This document shows, one piece after another, positions 10,413 to 50,188 of a stretch of 64,000 nucleotides of DNA. Origin of the DNA: an uncultured Acidimicrobiales bacterium (GTDB taxonomy: Bacteria; Actinomycetota; Acidimicrobiia; Acidimicrobiales; SHLQ01). The stretch's first letter is position 1. Every line of letters starts with the position of its first letter. Location of the stretch: the NCBI GenBank assembly GCA_938015295.1, contig CALLQB010000031.1:1-64000 (forward strand), in the 5' to 3' direction. A program made the translations under genes and the position numbers. The notes below the pieces were generated by a model that ran no database searches, had not been told where the DNA came from, and was given only the letters and a program-made list of their open reading frames with translations.

Positions 10413-12283
10413 TAGTACATCGACTCCACGAGTTCGCCGAAGTGATCGATCATGGCCGATCGCTTGAGTTTCTGCGTTGCGGTGAGCTCGCCGTCTTCGT
10501 GGTCGAGCTCTTTGGGAATGAGCCGGAACTTTTTGAGTCCCTCGACCCGGGCAAACTTTTCGTTGCAGTCATCGACGATTCCCTGCACAAGGGCGACGAC
10601 CTCTTCTTTGCCTGTGAGGTCGCGGTATGTGGTGTAGGAAAGATCTTGGCGTAGTGCCCAGTCGCCAACGGTGTCGAGTTCGATGCCGATGAGCGCAGTG
10701 AGGTATTTGCGACCGTCGCCGACCACCATGGCCTCTTTCACAAACGGCGAGGCTTTGAGCGTATTTTCGATCTCGCTTGGCGAAATGTTCTTTCCGCCCG
10801 AGGTGATGATGATGTCTTTCATCCGGTCGACAATTTTGACGTGGGTGCCATCGACCCATTCGCCGACGTCGCCGGTGCGAAGCCAACCATCGTCGGTCAT
10901 GGTTTCGGCGGTCTTTTCGGGCTTGTTCCAGTAGCCGGCAAATACGCCATCGTGCGCGGTTTGAATTTCGCCAGTCTCTTCATCGATACGAAGACCAATG
11001 CCGCTGTAGGCCTCGCCGACCGTGCCGAGCTTGAGGCGCCCGGGGAAGTTGCAGGTGGCGACCGCCGAGTTCTCGGTCATGCCGTACAACTCGTAGACCT
11101 CGATGCCGATGCCCATGAAGAACTCAAGCACCTCGGGGGCGATAGGCGCTGCGCCCGAAGCTGCCCGGCGGCAGTGACGGAGGCCGACCTTTTCTTGCAT
11201 CGCCCGAAAGATCAGCGGATAGAAGATGGCGTGGAGAAGTCGACTCTTGGCGGTGTGGTTGCCACCGTTGGCCACCTTGGCCTTGCCTATGGAGCTGGCC
11301 GCCTTCATGCCGGCATTAAGCCAGATTTTTTTGAACGGTGAGGAGTCGCCGCTGCGGATGATGAGGCCAGCGTGCAGGCGCTCCCAGATGCGCGGGACAG
11401 CAAAGAACAAGGTTGGCTGGATCTCGCGAAGGTTGGCGGGAACCGTTTCGATCGACTCAGCAAAGTTCAGCGTCGGCCCACCCGCCAGCATCGTCCAGGT
11501 CGAGAAGATTCGTTCTGCAACGTGGCAAAGAGGAAGATAGGTGAGGATCTGGTCGCTCTCGTTCGGCGCCTTGCCATCGGGGTACGCGTCTTGTTGTTCG
11601 ATAATCTTTTCCATCGCGAACAACGAGTTCTTGTTGGTGAGCATGGCGCCCTTGGGCGGACCGGTTGTTCCCGAGGTGTAGACCAACGTCATGACATCGC
11701 CGTCTTCGGCTTCAGCCATACGTTGGGCCACTGCGCCAGGATTGTTCTTACGGTGCTCGCGACCCAGGTCGAGGAAGTTGTCCCAAAAGAGCAGTCGCTT
11801 GTCGTCGGCGCCAGCGAAACCACGAGGTTCGACATAGATGATGGTCTGCATCGCCGAGATCTCGTTGGGGTCGATCTCGAAGACCTTGTCGACTTGTTCC
11901 TGGTCTTCGCCGAGATGAACTTTGGAGGCTGAGTCTTTGAGGAGGTACTCGACCTCGGCTGCAGGGTTCGTGGGGTAGAGGCCAACGGTTATGCCGCGAA
12001 CGGCGACGGTCGCCAGATCGAGAATGATCCACTCGGGCCGATCTTCGGCGTGGATGGAAACGCGGTCGCCGACGTCGATGCCAAGTGCCAGTAGGCCGTG
12101 TGCCGCGGTCTCGATGAGGTCCCAAGTCTCGGCCCAGTCGTATTCAAGCCAGATGCCAAAGTCCTTTTCGCGCATCGCAATATTTTTTGGCGAACGGTCG
12201 GCCCAGCCTTTGGCAAGCGATGCGACCGTGGCAGCACCCGAACCAACGCTCGGGGTACGGACTTGTTCTTCTGCGATCGACAT
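10412..12283 (-). CDS. AMP-dependent acyl-CoA synthetase/ligase (FadD-like long-chain type)
   Basis: 623 aa. It has the AMP-binding motif YTSGTTGPPKGAMLT, GYGMTE-like YELYGMTEN, and TGDVGEW...KIVDRMKDIIITSGGKNISP. It is the first gene of the transporter operon. Confidence 0.9.
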   Translation of the reverse strand: MSIAEEQVRTPSVGSGAATVASLAKGWADRSPKNIAMREKDFGIWLEYDWAETWDLIETAAHGLLALGIDVGDRVSIHAEDRPEWIILDLATVAVRGITVGLYPTNPAAEVEYLLKDSASKVHLGEDQEQVDKVFEIDPNEISAMQTIIYVEPRGFAGADDKRLLFWDNFLDLGREHRKNNPGAVAQRMAEAEDGDVMTLVYTSGTTGPPKGAMLTNKNSLFAMEKIIEQQDAYPDGKAPNESDQILTYLPLCHVAERIFSTWTMLAGGPTLNFAESIETVPANLREIQPTLFFAVPRIWERLHAGLIIRSGDSSPFKKIWLNAGMKAASSIGKAKVANGGNHTAKSRLLHAIFYPLIFRAMQEKVGLRHCRRAASGAAPIAPEVLEFFMGIGIEVYELYGMTENSAVATCNFPGRLKLGTVGEAYSGIGLRIDEETGEIQTAHDGVFAGYWNKPEKTAETMTDDGWLRTGDVGEWVDGTHVKIVDRMKDIIITSGGKNISPSEIENTLKASPFVKEAMVVGDGRKYLTALIGIELDTVGDWALRQDLSYTTYRDLTGKEEVVALVQGIVDDCNEKFARVEGLKKFRLIPKELDHEDGELTATQKLKRSAMIDHFGELVESMY

Positions 12284-15867: not shown

Positions 15868-16233
15868 CTACTCGGCGTTGATCATGTGCGTGCTCGCCTG
15901 CGCAAAGTAGGCGAGCATCTCGGCTTCGAGGTCGGGCGCAAGATCGCCACCTTTCACTGCATCGACCATGTGACGCAGCCAGGCATCCTTCTCGGGTTCA
16001 CGAATCACAAAAGGCGCATGGCGCATGCGCAACCGCGGATGGCCACGGTCGTCGCTGTAGGTGCTCGGACCTCCCCAGTACTGCTGCAGAAACAGCACCA
16101 TGTGCAAACGCGACTCGGTGAGGTCTTCGGGATACAGCGGACGCAGCACAGGGTCGGTATCGACGGCGTCGTAGAACCTGTCGATCAGGCCTTCGAACCA
16201 GGGGGTGCCGCCCACCAATTCGAAGACTGACAC
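15868..16233 (-). CDS. glbO: Group II truncated haemoglobin
   Basis: 121 aa. FYDAV..DPVLRPLYPE......FL.QYWGGP..Y....GHPRLRMRH.PF is the trHbO signature. Confidence 0.88.
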   Translation of the reverse strand: MSVFELVGGTPWFEGLIDRFYDAVDTDPVLRPLYPEDLTESRLHMVLFLQQYWGGPSTYSDDRGHPRLRMRHAPFVIREPEKDAWLRHMVDAVKGGDLAPDLEAEMLAYFAQASTHMINAE

Positions 16234-16247
16234 GGATCGTGGCGTCT

Positions 16248-16865
16248 TCAGGGTCGCTCCCCGAATTCAGGACCCTCGGTGCGGGTGCGTTTCAGTTCCC
16301 AGAAACCCTCAACATCCATAAGCGCGTCGAGACCATCCCAGAGCTTCAGTGCGCTGTCGCCTTCGGGCACCCTGGTGATGACTGGGCCAAAGTACGCAAC
16401 CCGTTTCCCGACGCTGTTGATCTTGGCGATGATCGGTGTACCCACATCGTCGCCGGTGAGGCCCAGTCCATCGTCCATTGCGGCCTGGATTGCGGCATCG
16501 AAAGAGTCGTCGTCGACCGCCGCAGCGTGTACCGGATCGAGGCCCACAGACGTCAAAACGTCGGCCATCGAGAAATCAAGTTCGCGGTCGTGATGAATCC
16601 GAGCGCCGAGTTCGAAGTAGAGGTCCTTGATTGGTCCCTCACCTTCGGCGGCTCGCACCGACTCCATCACCCGCAACATATTGTGCGTTTTTTGTACCGG
16701 AGCGAAATAGTCGCTGTCGGGCTCGGGCTTGTTCTTCAACAACAAGCTGATCGATTTCCACGTGATGTGAAGATCGCGTTCTTCGGCGATATCGACGACC
16801 CACCTGGCCGTCACCCAGCACCACGGTCAAATGGGGTCAACCCAGAAATCAAGTTCAGTAGCCAT
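16248..16865 (-). CDS. DsbA-like / Rv2466c-type thiol oxidoreductase with an in-frame TGA at the first active-site position (candidate selenocysteine, UPWC); the alternative is a pseudogene
   Basis: The track ORF starts at the GTG at 16814 (MTARWVV...). Reading upstream in the same frame gives ATG(16865) GCT ACT GAA CTT GAT TTC TGG GTT GAC CCC ATT TGA(16829..16827) CCG TGG TGC TGG GTG, which translates as MATELDFWVDPI-*-PWCWV. From memory, Cys-containing homologues carry DFWFDPxCPWCW at this point. Confidence 0.6.
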
Positions 16866-16892
16866 CGCGCGATCTTACTTGCGACTCAGCGG

Positions 16893-18113
16893 CTACTTGC
16901 GACTCAGCGCAACTGGCAGCTTCTTCAGACTGTTGTTGAGGTTGCTTCTCACCCGCACTGGTTCGCCGCGTTGCTCAATGTGTCCAAAGGTAGAAAGTAG
17001 TTCCTCGAAGAACACCCGCCCCTCAAGCCTGGCGAGGTGAGCGCCCAGACAGAAGTGACCGCCGATGCCGAACGACAAGTGTGGGTTAGGCGACCGCGTG
17101 ATGTCGAAATCGTGGGGGCGATCGAACACCTCCGGATCGCGGTTCGCCGCGGTATAGATCATCCCGACTTTGTCGCCGGCCTTCATTGCCTGACCGCCCA
17201 GAACAGTGTCGGCAACAACGGTGCGTCGGAAGTAATGCAACGGGTTCGCCCAACGAAGAATCTCCTCGACCGCACCGGGCAACAGCGCGGAGCTGGACCG
17301 GACGGCTCCCAGTTGCTCGGGATGGTCGAGCAACGCCAGCAATCCACTCGCCAACATGGTCTTGGTTGTGTCGTTGCCCGCCGTCACGAGCTGCACGAAG
17401 AACATGCCAAACTCGAGATCACTCATCAGATGCCCGTCGGGAGTTCCGTCGGCGATCGGCGACTCGAGCAACACCGTGGTGATGTCATCGGTAGGCGGCT
17501 GGTCGCGCCGAGAAGCGGCGAACCCCATCGCGTACTGCATCATCTGCATACTCGCGCTCGGCTGCCCATCGTCCTCACCAGCGATGTCGGGGTCCTGGCC
17601 GCTGGTGTTGCGTTCGGCCATGTGATGCACCTTCATCCAGTCGCCCTCAGGCAAACCCATCAGCTCGCCCATCACCTGCGAAGGCAGCCGTGCCGTCACG
17701 TCGTGCACGAAATCGAGCTCTTCACCGTCGACCGAGTCGGCCAGAATCGTTCTGCAAATATCTCGGATTCGCTCCTCCATCTGCCCAATGACACGCGCTT
17801 TGAAACTCGGCGAAAGGGGTTTGCGATGCGCGCCATGCCGTGGAGGGTCCATTGCCAACAACATGCCGCGCATCGCTTGCAGGCTCTGCTCGTCGAGATC
17901 TTCAAGCACAACCCCGCCAGCCGTCGCTGAATAGATCTCTGGCTGACGAGACGCTTCGACAACATCGGCGTAGCGCAACAGCGCCCAGTAGCCCGACCCA
18001 TCGGGCATCTCCTGCCAGAAAACCGGTTGCTCGACTCGGAGTCGATCGAAGACGTCGTGCGGCGGCCCCGCCACATACACGTCTGGCGAATAGATATCGT
18101 TTTCACCTGTCAC
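16893..18113 (-). CDS. Cytochrome P450
   Basis: It has the haem loop FGIGGHFCLGAHLA, an ExxR (EEILRW) and I-helix VTAGNDTT. I prefer the GTG at 18113 (VTGENDIY) over the long ORF start. Confidence 0.9.
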   Translation of the reverse strand: MTGENDIYSPDVYVAGPPHDVFDRLRVEQPVFWQEMPDGSGYWALLRYADVVEASRQPEIYSATAGGVVLEDLDEQSLQAMRGMLLAMDPPRHGAHRKPLSPSFKARVIGQMEERIRDICRTILADSVDGEELDFVHDVTARLPSQVMGELMGLPEGDWMKVHHMAERNTSGQDPDIAGEDDGQPSASMQMMQYAMGFAASRRDQPPTDDITTVLLESPIADGTPDGHLMSDLEFGMFFVQLVTAGNDTTKTMLASGLLALLDHPEQLGAVRSSSALLPGAVEEILRWANPLHYFRRTVVADTVLGGQAMKAGDKVGMIYTAANRDPEVFDRPHDFDITRSPNPHLSFGIGGHFCLGAHLARLEGRVFFEELLSTFGHIEQRGEPVRVRSNLNNSLKKLPVALSRK

Positions 18114-18129
18114 GACACGGGCCCCCTGT

Positions 18130-19032
18130 TTGGCTCTTTCCACAACTCTGTACCTACGCTGGCGCCCTGTGCCAATCACTCCGCAAGACAACGACGCGAT
18201 CGCGATCCCTGGGGGCCGGTTTCGGATGGGCGGCGAAGACGACGTCGGCTACCCAAGTGACGGCGAAGGACCGATCCGAGACGTTGCGATTTCGGCGTTT
18301 GCGCTCTCACCGGTAGCGGTGACCAACGACGACTTTGCGGCCTTCGCCGACGCCACCGGCTACCGCACCACCGCGGAGACCGACGGCTGGTCGTTTGTGT
18401 TTGCCGGCCTTCTGCCCGAGAACTTCTCCCCCACCCGAGGCGTCGCATCCGCCCCGTGGTGGCGGCAGGTATTCGGAGCCAGCTGGCGCAACCCGCACGG
18501 CCCCAACTCGCCGGTCGAGAACCGCGGTGACCATCCGGTTGTGCACGTGAGCTGGTTCGACGCAGCTGCCTATTGCAACTGGGCCGGCGGGCGCCTGCCC
18601 ACCGAAGCAGAATGGGAATACGCCGCCCGTGGCGGCCTCGAGCAAAAACGATTCCCCTGGGGCGACGACGAGACCCCTGGAGGTGAGCACCGATGCAACG
18701 TCTGGCAGGGAGAGTTTCCGATGAGCAACTCCCTGGCCGACGGATGGTACGACACCGCCCCGGTCGATACGTTCGCCCCGAACGGCTACGGCCTTTACAA
18801 CATGGTGGGCAACGTCTGGGAATGGTGCGCCGACTGGTTCTCGCCACAACACCAACCCCAAGCACTCGACGATCCAATCGGCCCAGCAACCGGCGCCGCT
18901 CGCGTCATGCGCGGCGGCTCGTTTCTTTGCAACCCCTCCTACTGTTTCCGCTACCGAAACGCGGCCCGCAGTTCAAACACCCCCGACAGCTCCACCGGCA
19001 ACCTGGGCTTCCGTATCAGCTATGACCAGTGA
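18130..19032 (+). CDS. Formylglycine-generating enzyme (SUMF1/FGE) family protein
   Basis: HPVVHVSWFDAAAYCNWAGGRLPTEAEWEYAARGG and RVMRGGSF...STGNLGFR are hallmark FGE-sulfatase domain motifs. The start is uncertain, with an alternative GTG near 18169. Confidence 0.82.
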   Translation: MALSTTLYLRWRPVPITPQDNDAIAIPGGRFRMGGEDDVGYPSDGEGPIRDVAISAFALSPVAVTNDDFAAFADATGYRTTAETDGWSFVFAGLLPENFSPTRGVASAPWWRQVFGASWRNPHGPNSPVENRGDHPVVHVSWFDAAAYCNWAGGRLPTEAEWEYAARGGLEQKRFPWGDDETPGGEHRCNVWQGEFPMSNSLADGWYDTAPVDTFAPNGYGLYNMVGNVWEWCADWFSPQHQPQALDDPIGPATGAARVMRGGSFLCNPSYCFRYRNAARSSNTPDSSTGNLGFRISYDQ

Positions 19033-48304: not shown

Positions 48305-50188
48305 TTGTGCCCGAAGACAATTTTAGCCAATTGCGTGGCTACGGTAGTCAGCTTGAGTTCCGCCGTGGTGCCCCCAACCGAAAGTCCCGCTATCCACCGT
48401 TTCTTGTACCGGTGGCAGCTCGACGCCCTTGAGGCCTGGTTAGCGGTCGGTCGCCGTGGTGTGATCGAAGCGGTAACCGGTAGTGGCAAGACAAACCTGG
48501 CCATGGCGGCAGTCACCGACGCCCATCGTCGGGGGCTCTTTGTCTTGGTCGTTGTCCCCTCGAGAGTTCTTATCGAGCAGTGGCATGAGCGGCTCACCGA
48601 GACGCTCCCCAACTGCGTCATCGGCCGCCTTGGCGATAATCACACCGACAAGCCACCCGATTGCGACATCCTCATCACCACCAGGCATTCCGCCGCATCG
48701 CACCAGCCGAAGCCACCTCCGGGCGAAGGTGGGCTGTTGGTAGCCGATGAGTGTCACGGTTTCGGGGGAGGCGTCCTCCGCCGTTCGCTCATTAGCGAAT
48801 ACACCGAGCGACTCGGCCTCACCGCGACCCTCGAACGCTCCGACGACGCCGTCGACAAGATCCTTCTGCCATTCTTCGGAGGCGTTTGTTTCCGGTACCG
48901 GTTCGCCGCGGCGATCAACGACGGCGTGTGCGCCCAGCCACGTGTCGCGTTTGTCTCGGTGCCGTTATCGAAAGAAGAGCGTCAGGACTACGTCACCACC
49001 GAAGCGAAACTGGTCGATGCCCGACGGACGCTCCGATCGATTCCGGGTATGCCCATCGATCACTTCGGTGAGTTTCTCGCAGCGACGAACCACCTCGCGG
49101 CCAACGACGCAGGGCCGCACGGTCGGGCGGCAAACGAGTACCTGAAAGCTTTCGCGAAACGTCGTGAAATCGTCGCCACAAGTACTGCTAAATACGAAGC
49201 TCTCGGCAACTTCGCCAACAGCATCAGTGCTGCCGCCGGCGCGCTGATCTTCACCGAAACAGTGCGGGCCGCGAACCATGCGGTCAACCGCCTCGACCCC
49301 TTCGTTTCCATCGAGGTCATCACCGGATCCACGCCGAAGGGCGAACGTGAGAAGATTCTTGGCAACCTGCGCAACGGCACACTTGATGCTGTCGCCGCAC
49401 CGCGGGTGCTCGACGAAGGCGTCGACGTGCCTGATGCAAACCTTGGCATCGTAGTCAGCGCCAGCCGAACTCGCCGTCAGATGATTCAGCGTATGGGCCG
49501 GATCCTCCGCCGAAAGGCCGAGGGTAGCGGCGCCAAGTTTGTCATCATCTTCGCTCGCGATACCGCCGAGGACCCCACGGCCAGCGAGGACCGCGACGGC
49601 TTCCTCGACGAGATCGAAGAGATCTCTGAGTCGTCAGCGGTATTTCATCCGAACGACTTCAACAAGCTCGAAGGTTTCCTCGACTACAGCGGCCCTGAAG
49701 TCATCATCGAGCCCGATCGTGTTGGACCAATGCTGGTCGACGAGACCGCCAAAGCGCCGTCGCTCACCAAAGCAACCATCGCCAAACTCCGGAGTACCGA
49801 TCCGGCCATGTGGGCCGCCGCAGTCAATGGCGACGTCGACGAACTTTGGGACACGTTAGGAAAGCATGCGTTGTATGCACGCCTTTCGTATCTTCACTGG
49901 GAGTCTGTCACGCCGCTGCATGAAAAGGTCTGGTCTCGGTTCGCCGACGAACCACCGGTGGAAACCGACGAATTCGACTACCTCGAAGTCGACAAACTCG
50001 AAACGCCAAAGATCGAAAAGCCCAAGCCGAAGCCCAAACGCTTGTCCACCGGCGAACTGCCGGTCATGCTCGCGCAGGTGGGCAAAGAATGGGTTGTTAA
50101 ATGCAGCGGCTGCGGAACCGCCTCGGCGCCAACGCCCTACAAGTGGCAGGCGCTCGACCAAACGGTCGAGTGCGACTGCTGGGGCTAA
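48305..50188 (+). CDS. Superfamily-2 DEAD/DEAH helicase (ResIII/XPB-like core) with a unique C-terminal extension ending in a Cys cluster
   Basis: It has motif I TGSGKT, motif II ADECH, motif III LTAT and motif VI QRMGRILR. The C-terminal roughly 190 aa are unrecognised and end in CSGCG...CDCWG. The start is uncertain (TTG 48305, GTG 48335). Confidence 0.8.
   Translation: MCPKTILANCVATVVSLSSAVVPPTESPAIHRFLYRWQLDALEAWLAVGRRGVIEAVTGSGKTNLAMAAVTDAHRRGLFVLVVVPSRVLIEQWHERLTETLPNCVIGRLGDNHTDKPPDCDILITTRHSAASHQPKPPPGEGGLLVADECHGFGGGVLRRSLISEYTERLGLTATLERSDDAVDKILLPFFGGVCFRYRFAAAINDGVCAQPRVAFVSVPLSKEERQDYVTTEAKLVDARRTLRSIPGMPIDHFGEFLAATNHLAANDAGPHGRAANEYLKAFAKRREIVATSTAKYEALGNFANSISAAAGALIFTETVRAANHAVNRLDPFVSIEVITGSTPKGEREKILGNLRNGTLDAVAAPRVLDEGVDVPDANLGIVVSASRTRRQMIQRMGRILRRKAEGSGAKFVIIFARDTAEDPTASEDRDGFLDEIEEISESSAVFHPNDFNKLEGFLDYSGPEVIIEPDRVGPMLVDETAKAPSLTKATIAKLRSTDPAMWAAAVNGDVDELWDTLGKHALYARLSYLHWESVTPLHEKVWSRFADEPPVETDEFDYLEVDKLETPKIEKPKPKPKRLSTGELPVMLAQVGKEWVVKCSGCGTASAPTPYKWQALDQTVECDCWG

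What the first reader, a model, noticed from the sequence alone, without database searches (positions are those of the whole stretch)
16248..16865. Candidate selenoprotein: TGA replaces the first Cys of the CxxC site in a DsbA/Rv2466c-type oxidoreductase (UPWC)
The annotated-style ORF (GTG at 16814) lacks any redox motif. The 17 codons upstream are in the same frame and read M-A-T-E-L-D-F-W-V-D-P-I-TGA-P-W-C-W, with a good ATG at 16865 lying 27 nt after the P450 stop. In Cys-containing members of this actinobacterial DsbA-like family (typified, from memory, by M. tuberculosis Rv2466c) this segment is DFWFDPxCPWCW. The only stop therefore sits precisely where the nucleophilic Cys should be, and both flanks keep family-like sequence. 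That pattern is the classical signature of Sec/Cys pairs. A Sec form of this mycothiol-linked reductase family would be unusual. The alternative explanation is a nonsense-mutated pseudogene.
Basis: partly seen in the sequence, partly recalled or inferred. Interest (0 to 1): 0.8.

Follow-up and report, generated by a model that had tools for sequence, protein, structure and literature searches.

The report
Selenocysteine form of Rv2466c-like reductase
The in-frame TGA is almost certainly a genuine selenocysteine codon in a thiol-reductase gene of an uncultured marine-type actinobacterium, conserved with its RNA insertion signal across more than 130 related genomes and metagenome contigs, but this selenoprotein family was already catalogued in 2008 under the name "DsbA 2", so it is a real but not new kind of thing.

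Summary
On the minus strand, 16865..16248 reads MATELDFWVDPI-TGA-PWCW..., with one in-frame TGA at 16829..16827.

It is neither a pseudogene nor a sequencing error:
- Five independent assemblies of this gene keep the TGA.
- 79 of 80 species-representative Acidimicrobiia genomes carry TGA at exactly this codon, down to about 57% protein identity. So do 56 of 77 metagenome loci. The rest have TGC or TGT.
- Both flanks are under protein-level selection.
- All 136 TGA-form genes have an upstream in-frame start.
- 97 of 135 end in an ordinary TGA stop, so recoding is position-specific.

A 7-bp hairpin (16812..16794) sits 14 nt after the UGA. It meets all four published bacterial SECIS criteria, shows compensatory changes at synonymous sites, and freezes synonymous positions only in TGA forms.

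The protein is Pfam Rv2466c-like (E = 1e-42). The UGA aligns to the nucleophilic Cys19 of M. tuberculosis Rv2466c/Mrx2.

Sec machinery could not be checked in this genome. It is reported in cultured relatives (Ilumatobacter, Ca. Microthrix) and in Actinomarina.

The family is not new. The 2008 GOS survey lists it as selenoprotein family "DsbA 2" (56% identical member). What this analysis adds is the Rv2466c assignment, the breadth across Acidimicrobiia, and the finding that databases truncate the gene.

The parts
16248..16865 (-). Full selenoprotein coding sequence: 205 residues including Sec13, from ATG 16865-16863 to terminal stop TGA 16250-16248. Rv2466c-like (Mrx2-type) thioredoxin-fold reductase.
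   Evidence: Translation. Pfam PF22234 E=1.1e-42. PDB Rv2466c chains 4zil/4nxi/5xur E about 1e-40. 56% identity to GOS 'DsbA 2' selenoprotein JCVI_READ_1004683.
16827..16829 (-). In-frame UGA read as selenocysteine (residue 13), replacing the nucleophilic Cys (Cys19 of Rv2466c).
   Evidence: TGA in 79/80 genome loci and all readable independent assemblies, and in 56/77 metagenome loci, the rest being TGC/TGT. Aligns to residue 19 of the solved chain. Cys19 is the nucleophile (PMC8280269 and PMC11841060).
16818..16829 (-). Active-site motif U-P-W-C. The resolving Cys codon TGC is at 16820-16818.
   Evidence: The motif is invariant as *P[WF]C in 119 distinct TGA-form sequences.
16830..16865 (-). 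The 12 N-terminal codons upstream of the UGA (MATELDFWVDPI). They are translated in the same frame and form part of the thioredoxin-fold beta1 strand leading into the active site.
   Evidence: FW[VI]DP is conserved at the amino-acid level while third positions vary freely (entropy 0.5-1.8 bits). All 136 TGA-form loci have an in-frame start before any stop, most often 10 or 12 codons upstream.
16813..16826 (-). 14-nt spacer between the UGA and the hairpin (CCGUGGUGCUGGGU).
   Evidence: It puts the apical loop 21 nt after the UGA, inside the 16-37 nt range of the bacterial SECIS model (PMC13188914).
16794..16812 (-). SECIS-like hairpin: 5' arm GACGGCC 16812-16806, apical loop AGGUG 16805-16801, 3' arm GGUCGUC 16800-16794.
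   Evidence: MFE -11.7 kcal/mol, z=-3.3. 99.8% of cells paired over 71 distinct sequences, two pairs with compensatory change, one pair showing GC/AU/CG/UA/GU, and 0/500 shuffles reaching the observed score. RNAalifold predicts the same helix. All three purely synonymous pairs are formed in 68/72 Sec forms against 2/20 Cys forms, and the loop is always NG[U/G]UG in Sec forms.
16812..16814 (-). GTG that gene callers take as the start codon of a truncated 188-aa ORF lacking the active site. It is really Val18, and its third base is the first base of the SECIS stem.
   Evidence: ORF list. All 19 nearest database homologues are truncated to 188-193 aa starting MTARWVV.
16248..16250 (-). Ordinary terminal stop codon, also TGA.
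   Evidence: 97/135 TGA-form genes end in TGA, so UGA is a normal stop in these organisms and recoding is context-specific.

Best explanation
The gene at 16865..16248 (minus strand) encodes a 205-residue cytoplasmic thioredoxin-fold reductase of the Rv2466c/Mrx2 family. [quoted passage not shown]

During translation, the UGA at 16829-16827 is recoded. The 7-bp hairpin 14 nt downstream (16812-16794, loop AGGUG) acts as a bacterial SECIS element. It recruits SelB carrying Sec-tRNA(Sec) to the ribosome. The same triplet at the end of the gene, which lacks such a hairpin, terminates translation.

The enzyme then presumably works like Rv2466c. The selenolate attacks a mixed disulfide or an oxidised or nitro substrate. 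Cys16 resolves the intermediate into an intramolecular selenenyl-sulfide. The enzyme is re-reduced by a low-molecular-weight thiol system, most likely mycothiol, mycothione reductase and NADPH.

Shown here: the conserved UGA opposite Cys, selection on both flanks, the covarying hairpin specific to UGA forms, and family membership.

Inferred: actual Se incorporation, presence of selA/B/C/D in this genome, the electron donor, and the physiological substrate.
For: (1) TGA sits at exactly this codon in 79/80 species-representative genomes, down to about 57% identity, and in 5 independent assemblies of the window gene. It is also TGA in 56/77 metagenome loci even though that scan was seeded with Cys forms. 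The remainder are TGC/TGT.
(2) The upstream peptide FW[VI]DP[I/L/V/A] is conserved with free synonymous variation. 136/136 TGA-form loci have an in-frame start upstream.
(3) 97/135 of the same genes end in TGA, so the genetic code is not reassigned.
(4) The hairpin is 99.8% paired, has compensatory changes at two pairs, and 0/500 shuffles reach the observed score. Slid controls give 14-68% paired. RNAalifold finds the same helix independently. MFE is -11.7 kcal/mol.
(5) The hairpin meets every constraint of the published bSECIS model. That model requires a 3-9 nt loop, a 4-16 bp stem, a G in the first two loop positions followed by G or U, 16-37 nt from UGA to loop, and MFE <= -7.5 (PMC13188914). 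Here the values are a 5-nt loop AGGUG, a 7-bp stem and 21 nt.
(6) The constraint is specific to UGA forms. Third-position entropy at the Thr/Ala/Arg codons inside the hairpin is 0.59/0.12/0.67 bits in Sec forms and 1.53/1.71/1.71 bits in Cys forms. The three synonymous-only pairs all form in 68/72 Sec forms against 2/20 Cys forms.
(7) Pfam Rv2466c-like E=1e-42. The UGA aligns with Cys19 of solved Rv2466c, which is the experimentally defined nucleophile.
(8) The same family is listed as a selenoprotein ('DsbA 2', UxxC) in the GOS survey.
(9) SelD, SelA and SelB are reported in Ilumatobacter (2 species) and Ca. Microthrix parvicella, with 15, 10 and 7 in the supplement's per-organism count table, taken here to be numbers of selenoproteins (PMC5029168 supplement). 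selA/B/C/D are reported in all 84 complete Actinomarina genomes (bioRxiv 10.64898/2026.04.03.716425). Ca. Microthrix MAGs (L056, L058) are among my TGA-form loci.
Against: No selA, selB, selD or tRNA-Sec was found in the 64-kb window or in 86 related loci. That is uninformative for a whole genome, but it leaves the machinery unverified for this organism.

There is no experimental evidence of Se incorporation for any member.

The peptide T-A-R-W-(V/A)-V fixes about 5 of the 7 stem pairs by itself, and a Cys form (L074) can fold a similar hairpin. The RNA evidence therefore rests on the three synonymous pairs, the loop sequence and the compensatory changes. The statistics are not corrected for phylogeny.

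Rfam has no matching SECIS model.

Mycothiol dependence is extrapolated from mycobacterial and corynebacterial homologues. The support for mycothiol in this class is indirect: mycothiol-dependent enzymes are annotated in Acidimicrobiia genomes.
Confidence: 0.92

Rival explanations
1. Nonsense-mutated pseudogene: a once Cys-containing gene inactivated by a TGC/TGT-to-TGA mutation and now decaying.
For: A single-base change from TGT or TGC gives TGA. Gene callers treat it as a stop.
Against: The same TGA is present in 135 other loci across Acidimicrobiia at 57-99% protein identity, with no other frame disruptions. Both flanks remain under purifying selection. Compensatory changes maintain a downstream hairpin.
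Confidence: 0.01
2. Sequencing or assembly error in this contig at 16827.
For: None beyond the prior possibility.
Against: Five independent assemblies from different samples read TGA and differ from the window by at most 1 base in 700 nt.
Confidence: 0.005
3. The real product is the 188-aa protein starting at GTG 16814, a thioredoxin-fold protein without a redox motif. The upstream 12-codon ORF would be a separate leader peptide or untranslated.
For: A GTG immediately follows the motif and is conserved. All databases annotate this form.
Against: The upstream codons encode exactly the family's beta1/active-site entry sequence (FWVDP-x) and evolve under amino-acid constraint with free synonymous change. 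The GTG is conserved because its third base pairs in the hairpin, and it becomes GUA with a compensating change in L036 and L081. A protein starting at residue 18 would lack beta1 and both active-site residues of the fold solved for Rv2466c. Some reinitiation at the GTG under selenium limitation cannot be excluded.
Confidence: 0.03
4. UGA is read through by something other than Sec: near-cognate Trp or Cys insertion, or a lineage-wide UGA reassignment.
For: The Sec machinery has not been verified in this genome.
Against: 97/135 of these same genes, including this one, terminate with TGA, so UGA is not reassigned. The hairpin matches the SelB-dependent bSECIS model in geometry and loop sequence. 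The position is the catalytic Cys, the classical Sec site. Cultured relatives have SelA, SelB and SelD.
Confidence: 0.03

Closest known systems
GOS selenoprotein family 'DsbA 2' (Zhang & Gladyshev 2008, PLoS Genet, PMC2398784; Table 1 and supplementary file 3)
   Same: It is the same protein family. Listed members read ...FWVDPIUPWCWVTARWVVDG...FWELKRTRKEGPDFGERP. The window protein is 56% identical over 204 residues to JCVI_READ_1004683 (E=6e-85). The UxxC motif and the Sec position are the same, and the survey notes Cys homologues (235).
   Different: The GOS entries are anonymous shotgun reads (18 Sec sequences from 10 samples), described only as a weak pfam01323 match (e>0.001). No taxon was assigned, no link to Rv2466c or mycothiol was made, and the text I read gives no family-specific SECIS analysis. 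Here the family is placed in Acidimicrobiia genomes, assigned to Pfam PF22234, and given a covariation-supported SECIS.
M. tuberculosis Rv2466c / Mrx2 (DsbA-like mycothiol-dependent reductase and nitroreductase; PDB 4NXI, 4ZIL, 5XUR) and C. glutamicum NCgl2339 and NCgl2478
   Same: The Pfam family is the same (PF22234, E=1e-42). Full-length homology to the solved structures is at E about 1e-40. The motif x-P-W-C is the same and aligns with C19-P-W-C22. By homology it is expected to act as a cytoplasmic reductase, not an oxidase.
   Different: The nucleophilic Cys19 is replaced by Sec. The host is an Acidimicrobiia MAG, not Mycobacteriales. Mycothiol dependence, SigH control and nitro-prodrug activation are untested here. 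The glbO and P450 neighbourhood of the window is not conserved.
'DsbA-like' selenoproteins of the Sargasso Sea and of Deltaproteobacteria/Clostridia ('DsbA 1'; 'DsbA-like protein form 1', COG2761/PF01323, UxxC; PMC1088965, PMC1794560, PMC13188914)
   Same: They share the thioredoxin/DsbA superfamily, the U-P-W-C motif near the N-terminus, similar length (about 200 aa) and a SECIS immediately downstream.
   Different: They are a different family. Sargasso members match Pfam DSBA over its full length (75-105 bits) and do not match PF22234. They are only 25% identical to the window protein over 149 residues. The window protein matches DSBA only weakly and partially (32.7 bits, profile positions 2-97).
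E. coli fdhF-type bacterial SECIS and the consensus bSECIS model (bSECISearch; summarised in PMC13188914)
   Same: A stem-loop inside the coding region directly after the UGA. The small apical loop has G followed by G or U, the distance from UGA to loop is 21 nt, and the stem is stable.
   Different: There is no sequence similarity to the E. coli elements (my own knowledge, not tested), and no Rfam model matches. SelB binding is inferred, not shown.

Membership tests
Bacterial selenoprotein gene (Sec-UGA recoding) | In-frame UGA aligned with a conserved, catalytic Cys in homologues (Sec/Cys pair) | tested here: met
   TGA opposite TGC/TGT in 22 Cys-form loci and in full-length database homologues. 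It aligns to Cys19 of Rv2466c.
Bacterial selenoprotein gene (Sec-UGA recoding) | UGA conserved in orthologues of other species, with coding constraint on both sides | tested here: met
   79/80 genome loci and 56/77 metagenome loci carry TGA. The upstream peptide is conserved with synonymous variation. 136/136 have an upstream in-frame start.
Bacterial selenoprotein gene (Sec-UGA recoding) | bSECIS: 3-9 nt apical loop, 4-16 bp upper stem, G in the first two loop positions, 16-37 nt from UGA to loop, MFE <= -7.5 kcal/mol (PMC13188914) | tested here: met
   Loop AGGUG (5 nt), 7-bp stem, 21 nt spacing, -11.7 kcal/mol. Covariation and specificity to UGA forms are shown.
Bacterial selenoprotein gene (Sec-UGA recoding) | selA, selB, selC (tRNA-Sec) and selD present in the same genome | not testable with these tools
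   None is in the window or in 86 related loci (ARAGORN, and tblastn with E. coli SelA/B/D). The literature reports the machinery in Ilumatobacter, Ca. Microthrix and Actinomarina.
Bacterial selenoprotein gene (Sec-UGA recoding) | Selenium demonstrably incorporated (75Se labelling or mass spectrometry) | not testable with these tools
   This needs an experiment.
Rv2466c-like / Mrx2 (Pfam PF22234) | Match to the family profile above the curated threshold over the full domain | tested here: met
   146.7 bits against a cutoff of 27, covering profile positions 1-180 of 180. Rv2466c structures match at E about 1e-40.
Rv2466c-like / Mrx2 (Pfam PF22234) | C-P-W/F-C active-site motif of the 'DsbA-Mrx1 cluster' (PMC8280269) | tested here: met
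   U-P-W-C, with Sec substituting for the first Cys. The second Cys is retained.
Rv2466c-like / Mrx2 (Pfam PF22234) | Mycothiol-dependent reductase activity | not testable with these tools
   The only support is indirect. Mycothiol S-conjugate amidase and mycothiol-dependent formaldehyde dehydrogenase are annotated in Acidimicrobiia.
GOS selenoprotein family 'DsbA 2' | Sequence membership: close similarity to listed members, with Sec at the same UxxC position | tested here: met
   56% identity, E=6e-85, to JCVI_READ_1004683. The segment FWVDPIUPWCWVTARWVVD is identical.
Sargasso/'DsbA 1' FrnE-type DsbA-like selenoproteins (COG2761, PF01323) | Full-length, strong match to Pfam DSBA (PF01323) | tested here: not met
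   The window protein scores 32.7 bits over profile positions 2-97 only. Sargasso members score 75-105 bits over positions 2-190 with no PF22234 hit. Pairwise identity is 25%.

The most novel reading that the evidence does not exclude
Selenocysteine may be the prevailing, possibly ancestral, state of the Mrx2/Rv2466c-type reductase across the class Acidimicrobiia. That would make it a natural selenoenzyme version of a mycothiol-dependent reductase and nitroreductase, a link I did not find in the literature searched: no paper in the library mentions both Rv2466c and selenocysteine. Its SECIS appears to have been built on a hairpin already about 70% pre-encoded by the conserved T-A-R-W-(V/A)-V peptide. 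That could explain easy switching between Cys and Sec. A simple NJ tree needs at least 3 switches, and L114/L116 are Cys forms that still carry the intact hairpin.
Probability: 0.4. Interest if true: 0.45.

Novelty: new member of a known kind. Interest (0 to 1): 0.3.

Why it matters
Practical value: every database entry among the nearest homologues of this clade is truncated to 188-193 aa that lack the active site. They are named 'hypothetical protein' or 'DsbA', and NCBIfam has no model for the family. A redox enzyme that appears widespread in Acidimicrobiia is therefore systematically mis-annotated. The UGA, its flanks and the hairpin defined here are enough to correct this.

Biological value: it connects an anonymous 2008 metagenomic selenoprotein family ('DsbA 2') to a biochemically and structurally characterised enzyme, Rv2466c/Mrx2. 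This gives a concrete, testable hypothesis for its function and a natural Sec/Cys pair for studying catalysis in that fold.

It does not change what is known about Sec decoding or about the kinds of proteins that use Sec. UxxC thioredoxin-fold proteins are the commonest class of bacterial selenoproteins.

Tried and rejected
- I searched for Sec machinery locally. ARAGORN on the window and 86 loci, and tblastn with E. coli SelA, SelB and SelD (fetched from NC_000913.3), gave no hits. This is uninformative for whole genomes.
- Rfam gave nothing at gathering thresholds on the whole window. A permissive scan of 16700-16900 gave only two sub-threshold, irrelevant hits.
Only the 19-25 nt hairpin stands out (z=-3.3). 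The longer lower stem in the window's MFE fold was not predicted in the alignment.
- I scanned the window for other UGA-interrupted coding regions as same-contig evidence of Sec use. The 28 candidates had no redox motifs. The two best (TGA at 11339/11930 on the plus strand and 49636 on the minus strand) translate to R/G/D/V-rich shadow-frame sequence. The score cutoff also failed to recover the target gene itself, so the screen is weak.
- Conserved synteny with the flanking P450, globin (GlbO-like) and M50 protease genes was found in only 2-3 of 80 loci. The operon context gives no functional clue.
- The hypothesis that this is the Sargasso Sea 'DsbA-like' family was rejected. That is a different Pfam family at 25% identity.
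- Raw hairpin presence as a Sec-specific feature was rejected as too weak, because the peptide itself encodes most pairs and Cys-form L074 folds similarly. I replaced it with the synonymous-pair and loop tests.
Full report
1. THE OBSERVATION

On the minus strand, 16865..16248 translates as MATELDFWVDPI*PWCWVTARWVVDIAEERDL...TRTEGPEFGERP*, with one internal stop. Reading the ruler gives these positions:
- ATG at 16865-16863;
- the internal TGA at 16829-16827;
- the second motif cysteine (TGC) at 16820-16818;
- the GTG of the mechanically listed 188-aa ORF at 16814-16812;
- the terminal stop, also TGA, at 16250-16248.

The upstream P450 ORF ends at 16893, 27 nt before the ATG. With the TGA read as Cys, the protein matches Pfam PF22234 'Rv2466c-like' over the whole profile (146.7 bits, E=1.1e-42). 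It matches DSBA (PF01323) only weakly (32.7 bits, N-terminal part). It has no NCBIfam model.

2. NOT AN ERROR, NOT A PSEUDOGENE

The called 188-aa product occurs on seven contigs from separate samples. The five assemblies that reach the codon all read TGA and differ from the window by at most 1 base in 700 nt.

In a protein search, all 19 nearest homologues (99% down to 70% identity) are 188-193 aa, cover 92% of the query and begin MTARWVV. More distant homologues of 204-207 aa are full length and read FWVDPACPFCWATARW. That truncation pattern is what a conserved in-frame stop produces in gene callers.

The DNA confirms it. In 80 species-representative genomes, the codon is TGA in 79 and TGC in one. 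These are all Acidimicrobiia/Acidimicrobiales MAGs, including Ca. Microthrix, Ca. Poriferisodalis, Ca. Aldehydirespiratoraceae and MedAcidi-G3. The codon always sits inside FW[VI]DP[ILVA]-*-PWCWVTARW.

That scan was seeded with truncated (TGA-form) proteins, so 79/80 is not an unbiased frequency. However, a metagenome scan seeded with Cys forms still returned 56 TGA, 16 TGC and 5 TGT.

All 136 TGA-form loci have an in-frame start codon before any stop, most often 10 or 12 codons upstream. 97 of 135 end in an ordinary TGA. UGA is therefore a normal stop in these organisms, and recoding is specific to this position. The codons upstream of the TGA keep their amino acids (F, W, D, P) while third positions vary (entropy 0.5-1.8 bits), so they are translated in this frame.

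3. THE RNA SIGNAL

Synonymous positions vary freely upstream of the TGA. They are nearly frozen for about 40 nt downstream: CCn UGG UGy UGG GUG ACG GCC (AGG|CGU) UGG GUC GUC.

A hairpin GACGGCC / loop / GGUCGUC starts 14 nt after the UGA. In the window, the 5' arm is 16812-16806, the loop AGGUG is 16805-16801, and the 3' arm is 16800-16794.

Evidence on 80 sequences (71 distinct):
- 99.8% of cells are paired, against 14-68% when the 3' partner is slid by 1-3 columns.
- Two pairs show changes on both sides.
- One pair occurs as GC, AU, CG, UA and GU.
- No shuffle out of 500 reaches the observed covariation score or the paired percentage.
- RNAalifold predicts the same helix on its own.
- The window hairpin folds at -11.7 kcal/mol, z=-3.3.

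It satisfies every constraint of the published bacterial SECIS model. That model requires a 3-9 nt loop, a 4-16 bp stem, a G in the first two loop positions usually followed by G or U, 16-37 nt from UGA to loop, and MFE <= -7.5 kcal/mol (PMC13188914). Here the values are a 5-nt loop, a 7-bp stem, a loop beginning A-G-G, and 21 nt.

4. A CAVEAT AND ITS CONTROL

The peptide T-A-R-W-(V/A)-V is also conserved in Cys forms. It fixes about five of the seven pairs by itself, and Cys-form L074 can fold a similar hairpin. I therefore restricted the test to the three stem pairs made only of synonymous or free positions:
- All three are formed in 68/72 distinct Sec-form sequences and in 2/20 Cys-form sequences (Fisher p about 2e-13, not corrected for phylogeny).
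- The loop is always N-G-(U/G)-U-G in Sec forms. The Arg codon there is essentially only CGU or AGG. The commonest Cys-form loop is CGCUG.
- Third-position entropy at the Thr/Ala/Arg codons in the hairpin is 0.59/0.12/0.67 bits in Sec forms and 1.53/1.71/1.71 bits in Cys forms. Upstream of the codon, the Sec set is the more diverse of the two.

The RNA constraint therefore goes with the UGA, as expected of a SECIS.

5. WHAT THE PROTEIN IS

The protein matches solved structures of M. tuberculosis Rv2466c (4ZIL, 4NXI, 5XUR) at E about 1e-40 over its full length. The UGA codon aligns with residue 19 of the chain.

The literature establishes C19-P-W-C22 as the active site of Rv2466c (Mrx2). Cys19 is the nucleophile and Cys22 the resolving residue. 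Reduction depends on mycothiol, and the enzyme acts as a reductase rather than a DsbA-type oxidase (PMC11841060 and PMC8280269).

By homology, the window protein is a U-P-W-C selenol/thiol reductase that cycles through a selenenyl-sulfide. The electron donor is inferred, not shown. Mycothiol use in the class is plausible because mycothiol S-conjugate amidase is a conserved marker protein of Acidimicrobiia, and mycothiol-dependent formaldehyde dehydrogenase is annotated in marine Acidimicrobiales (PMC5962788 and PMC4337565).

The same-strand neighbours in the window are the P450 gene upstream and a Bac_globin gene 14 nt downstream. They are not conserved partners: 2-3 of 80 loci.

6. SEC MACHINERY

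No tRNA-Sec and no SelA, SelB or SelD homologue is present in the window or in 86 related loci.

The literature supports the trait in the lineage:
- Peng et al. 2016 score Ilumatobacter coccineus, I. nonamiensis and Ca. Microthrix parvicella as SelD+/SelA+/SelB+. The supplement's per-organism count table gives 15, 10 and 7, which I take to be numbers of selenoproteins (PMC5029168 supplement).
- A 2026 preprint reports selA/B/C/D in all 84 complete Actinomarina genomes.

Two Ca. Microthrix MAGs are among my TGA-form loci (L056, L058).

7. COMPARISON WITH WHAT IS KNOWN

'DsbA-like' selenoproteins were first reported from the Sargasso Sea (PMC1088965). Those sequences share U-P-W-C but are FrnE-type DsbA proteins. 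They match PF01323 over its full length, do not match PF22234, and are 25% identical to the window protein. They are a different family.

The 2008 GOS survey (PMC2398784) lists a separate family, 'DsbA 2': pfam01323 e>0.001, UxxC, 18 Sec sequences in 10 samples, 235 Cys homologues. Its members read VEKKFWVDPIUPWCWVTARWVVDG...FWELKRTRKEGPDFGERP. The window protein is 56% identical to one of them (E=6e-85). The selenoprotein family itself is therefore already in the literature.

What I did not find there:
- The identification with Rv2466c/Mrx2. No paper in the library holds both 'Rv2466c' and 'selenocysteine', and the 2026 review of prokaryotic selenoproteomes mentions neither Rv2466c nor mycothiol.
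- A taxonomic home for the family.
- A family-specific SECIS analysis.

8. VERDICT

This is a genuine, conserved selenocysteine codon with its SECIS, in a new member of a known selenoprotein family. Its expectation of rarity is not.

I put confidence that this is a Sec-decoding gene at about 0.92, and lower for the mycothiol-linked mechanism. Interest is modest. The result corrects a systematic annotation error and ties an anonymous metagenomic family to a well-studied enzyme, but it does not reveal a new kind of system.

Noticed in passing
L114:1001-1080 and L116 (metagenome contigs Ga0209303_1000020 and Ga0115029_1000008): These are Cys forms (TGT) whose nearest relatives are Sec forms. They still carry the complete 7/7 SECIS-type hairpin with loop CGUUG, which looks like a recent Sec-to-Cys switch by a single A-to-T change. 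A simple NJ tree needs at least 3 Sec/Cys switches in the sampled set.
   Followed up: partly
Database proteins P0001-P0019, P0030, P0034, P0050, P0064, P0120 and others; window 16812-16814: Every public protein record of the TGA-form clade among the nearest hits is truncated to 188-193 aa. Each starts at the GTG that lies inside the SECIS stem, lacks the active site, and is named 'hypothetical protein' or 'DsbA'. NCBIfam has no model for the family.
   Followed up: yes
L067 (NZ_CBDCEO010000013.1) and L084 (NZ_CBDCEO010000005.1): Two TGA-form copies occur on different contigs of the same Ca. Poriferisodalis MAG (isolate aea9684f...). This could be a true paralogue pair or strain heterogeneity or duplication in the bin.
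   Followed up: no
window 15868-18191, minus strand: The genes run P450 (16893-18191), then the selenoprotein (16248-16865), then a Bac_globin/GlbO-like gene (15868-16233) on one strand, with gaps of only 27 and 14 nt. This looks operon-like here but recurs in only 2-3 of 80 related genomes.
   Followed up: yes
L029, L034, L038, L039, L041, L044, L049, L050, L053, L055, L066 (positions about 270-1780): A tRNA-Arg(CCG) gene lies 1.2-2.7 kb upstream of the selenoprotein gene in a subset of loci, mostly Ca. Aldehydirespiratoraceae. This suggests conserved local synteny in that family. There is no obvious link to Sec decoding.
   Followed up: no
window 16794-16812 and the equivalent codons in Cys-form loci (L074, L089-L119): The conserved peptide T-A-R-W-(V/A)-V by itself encodes about 5 of the 7 SECIS stem pairs, so Cys-form genes already carry a near-hairpin (5-6 of 7 pairs). 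This may predispose the family to acquiring or losing Sec.
   Followed up: partly
window 10655-12094 (+) and 48968-49855 (-): These are long same-frame open stretches interrupted only by TGA, and they scored as 'coding-like' in a crude codon-usage screen. Their translations are R/G/D/V-rich and look like shadow frames of genes on the other strand in a 60% GC genome, not selenoproteins.
   Followed up: partly
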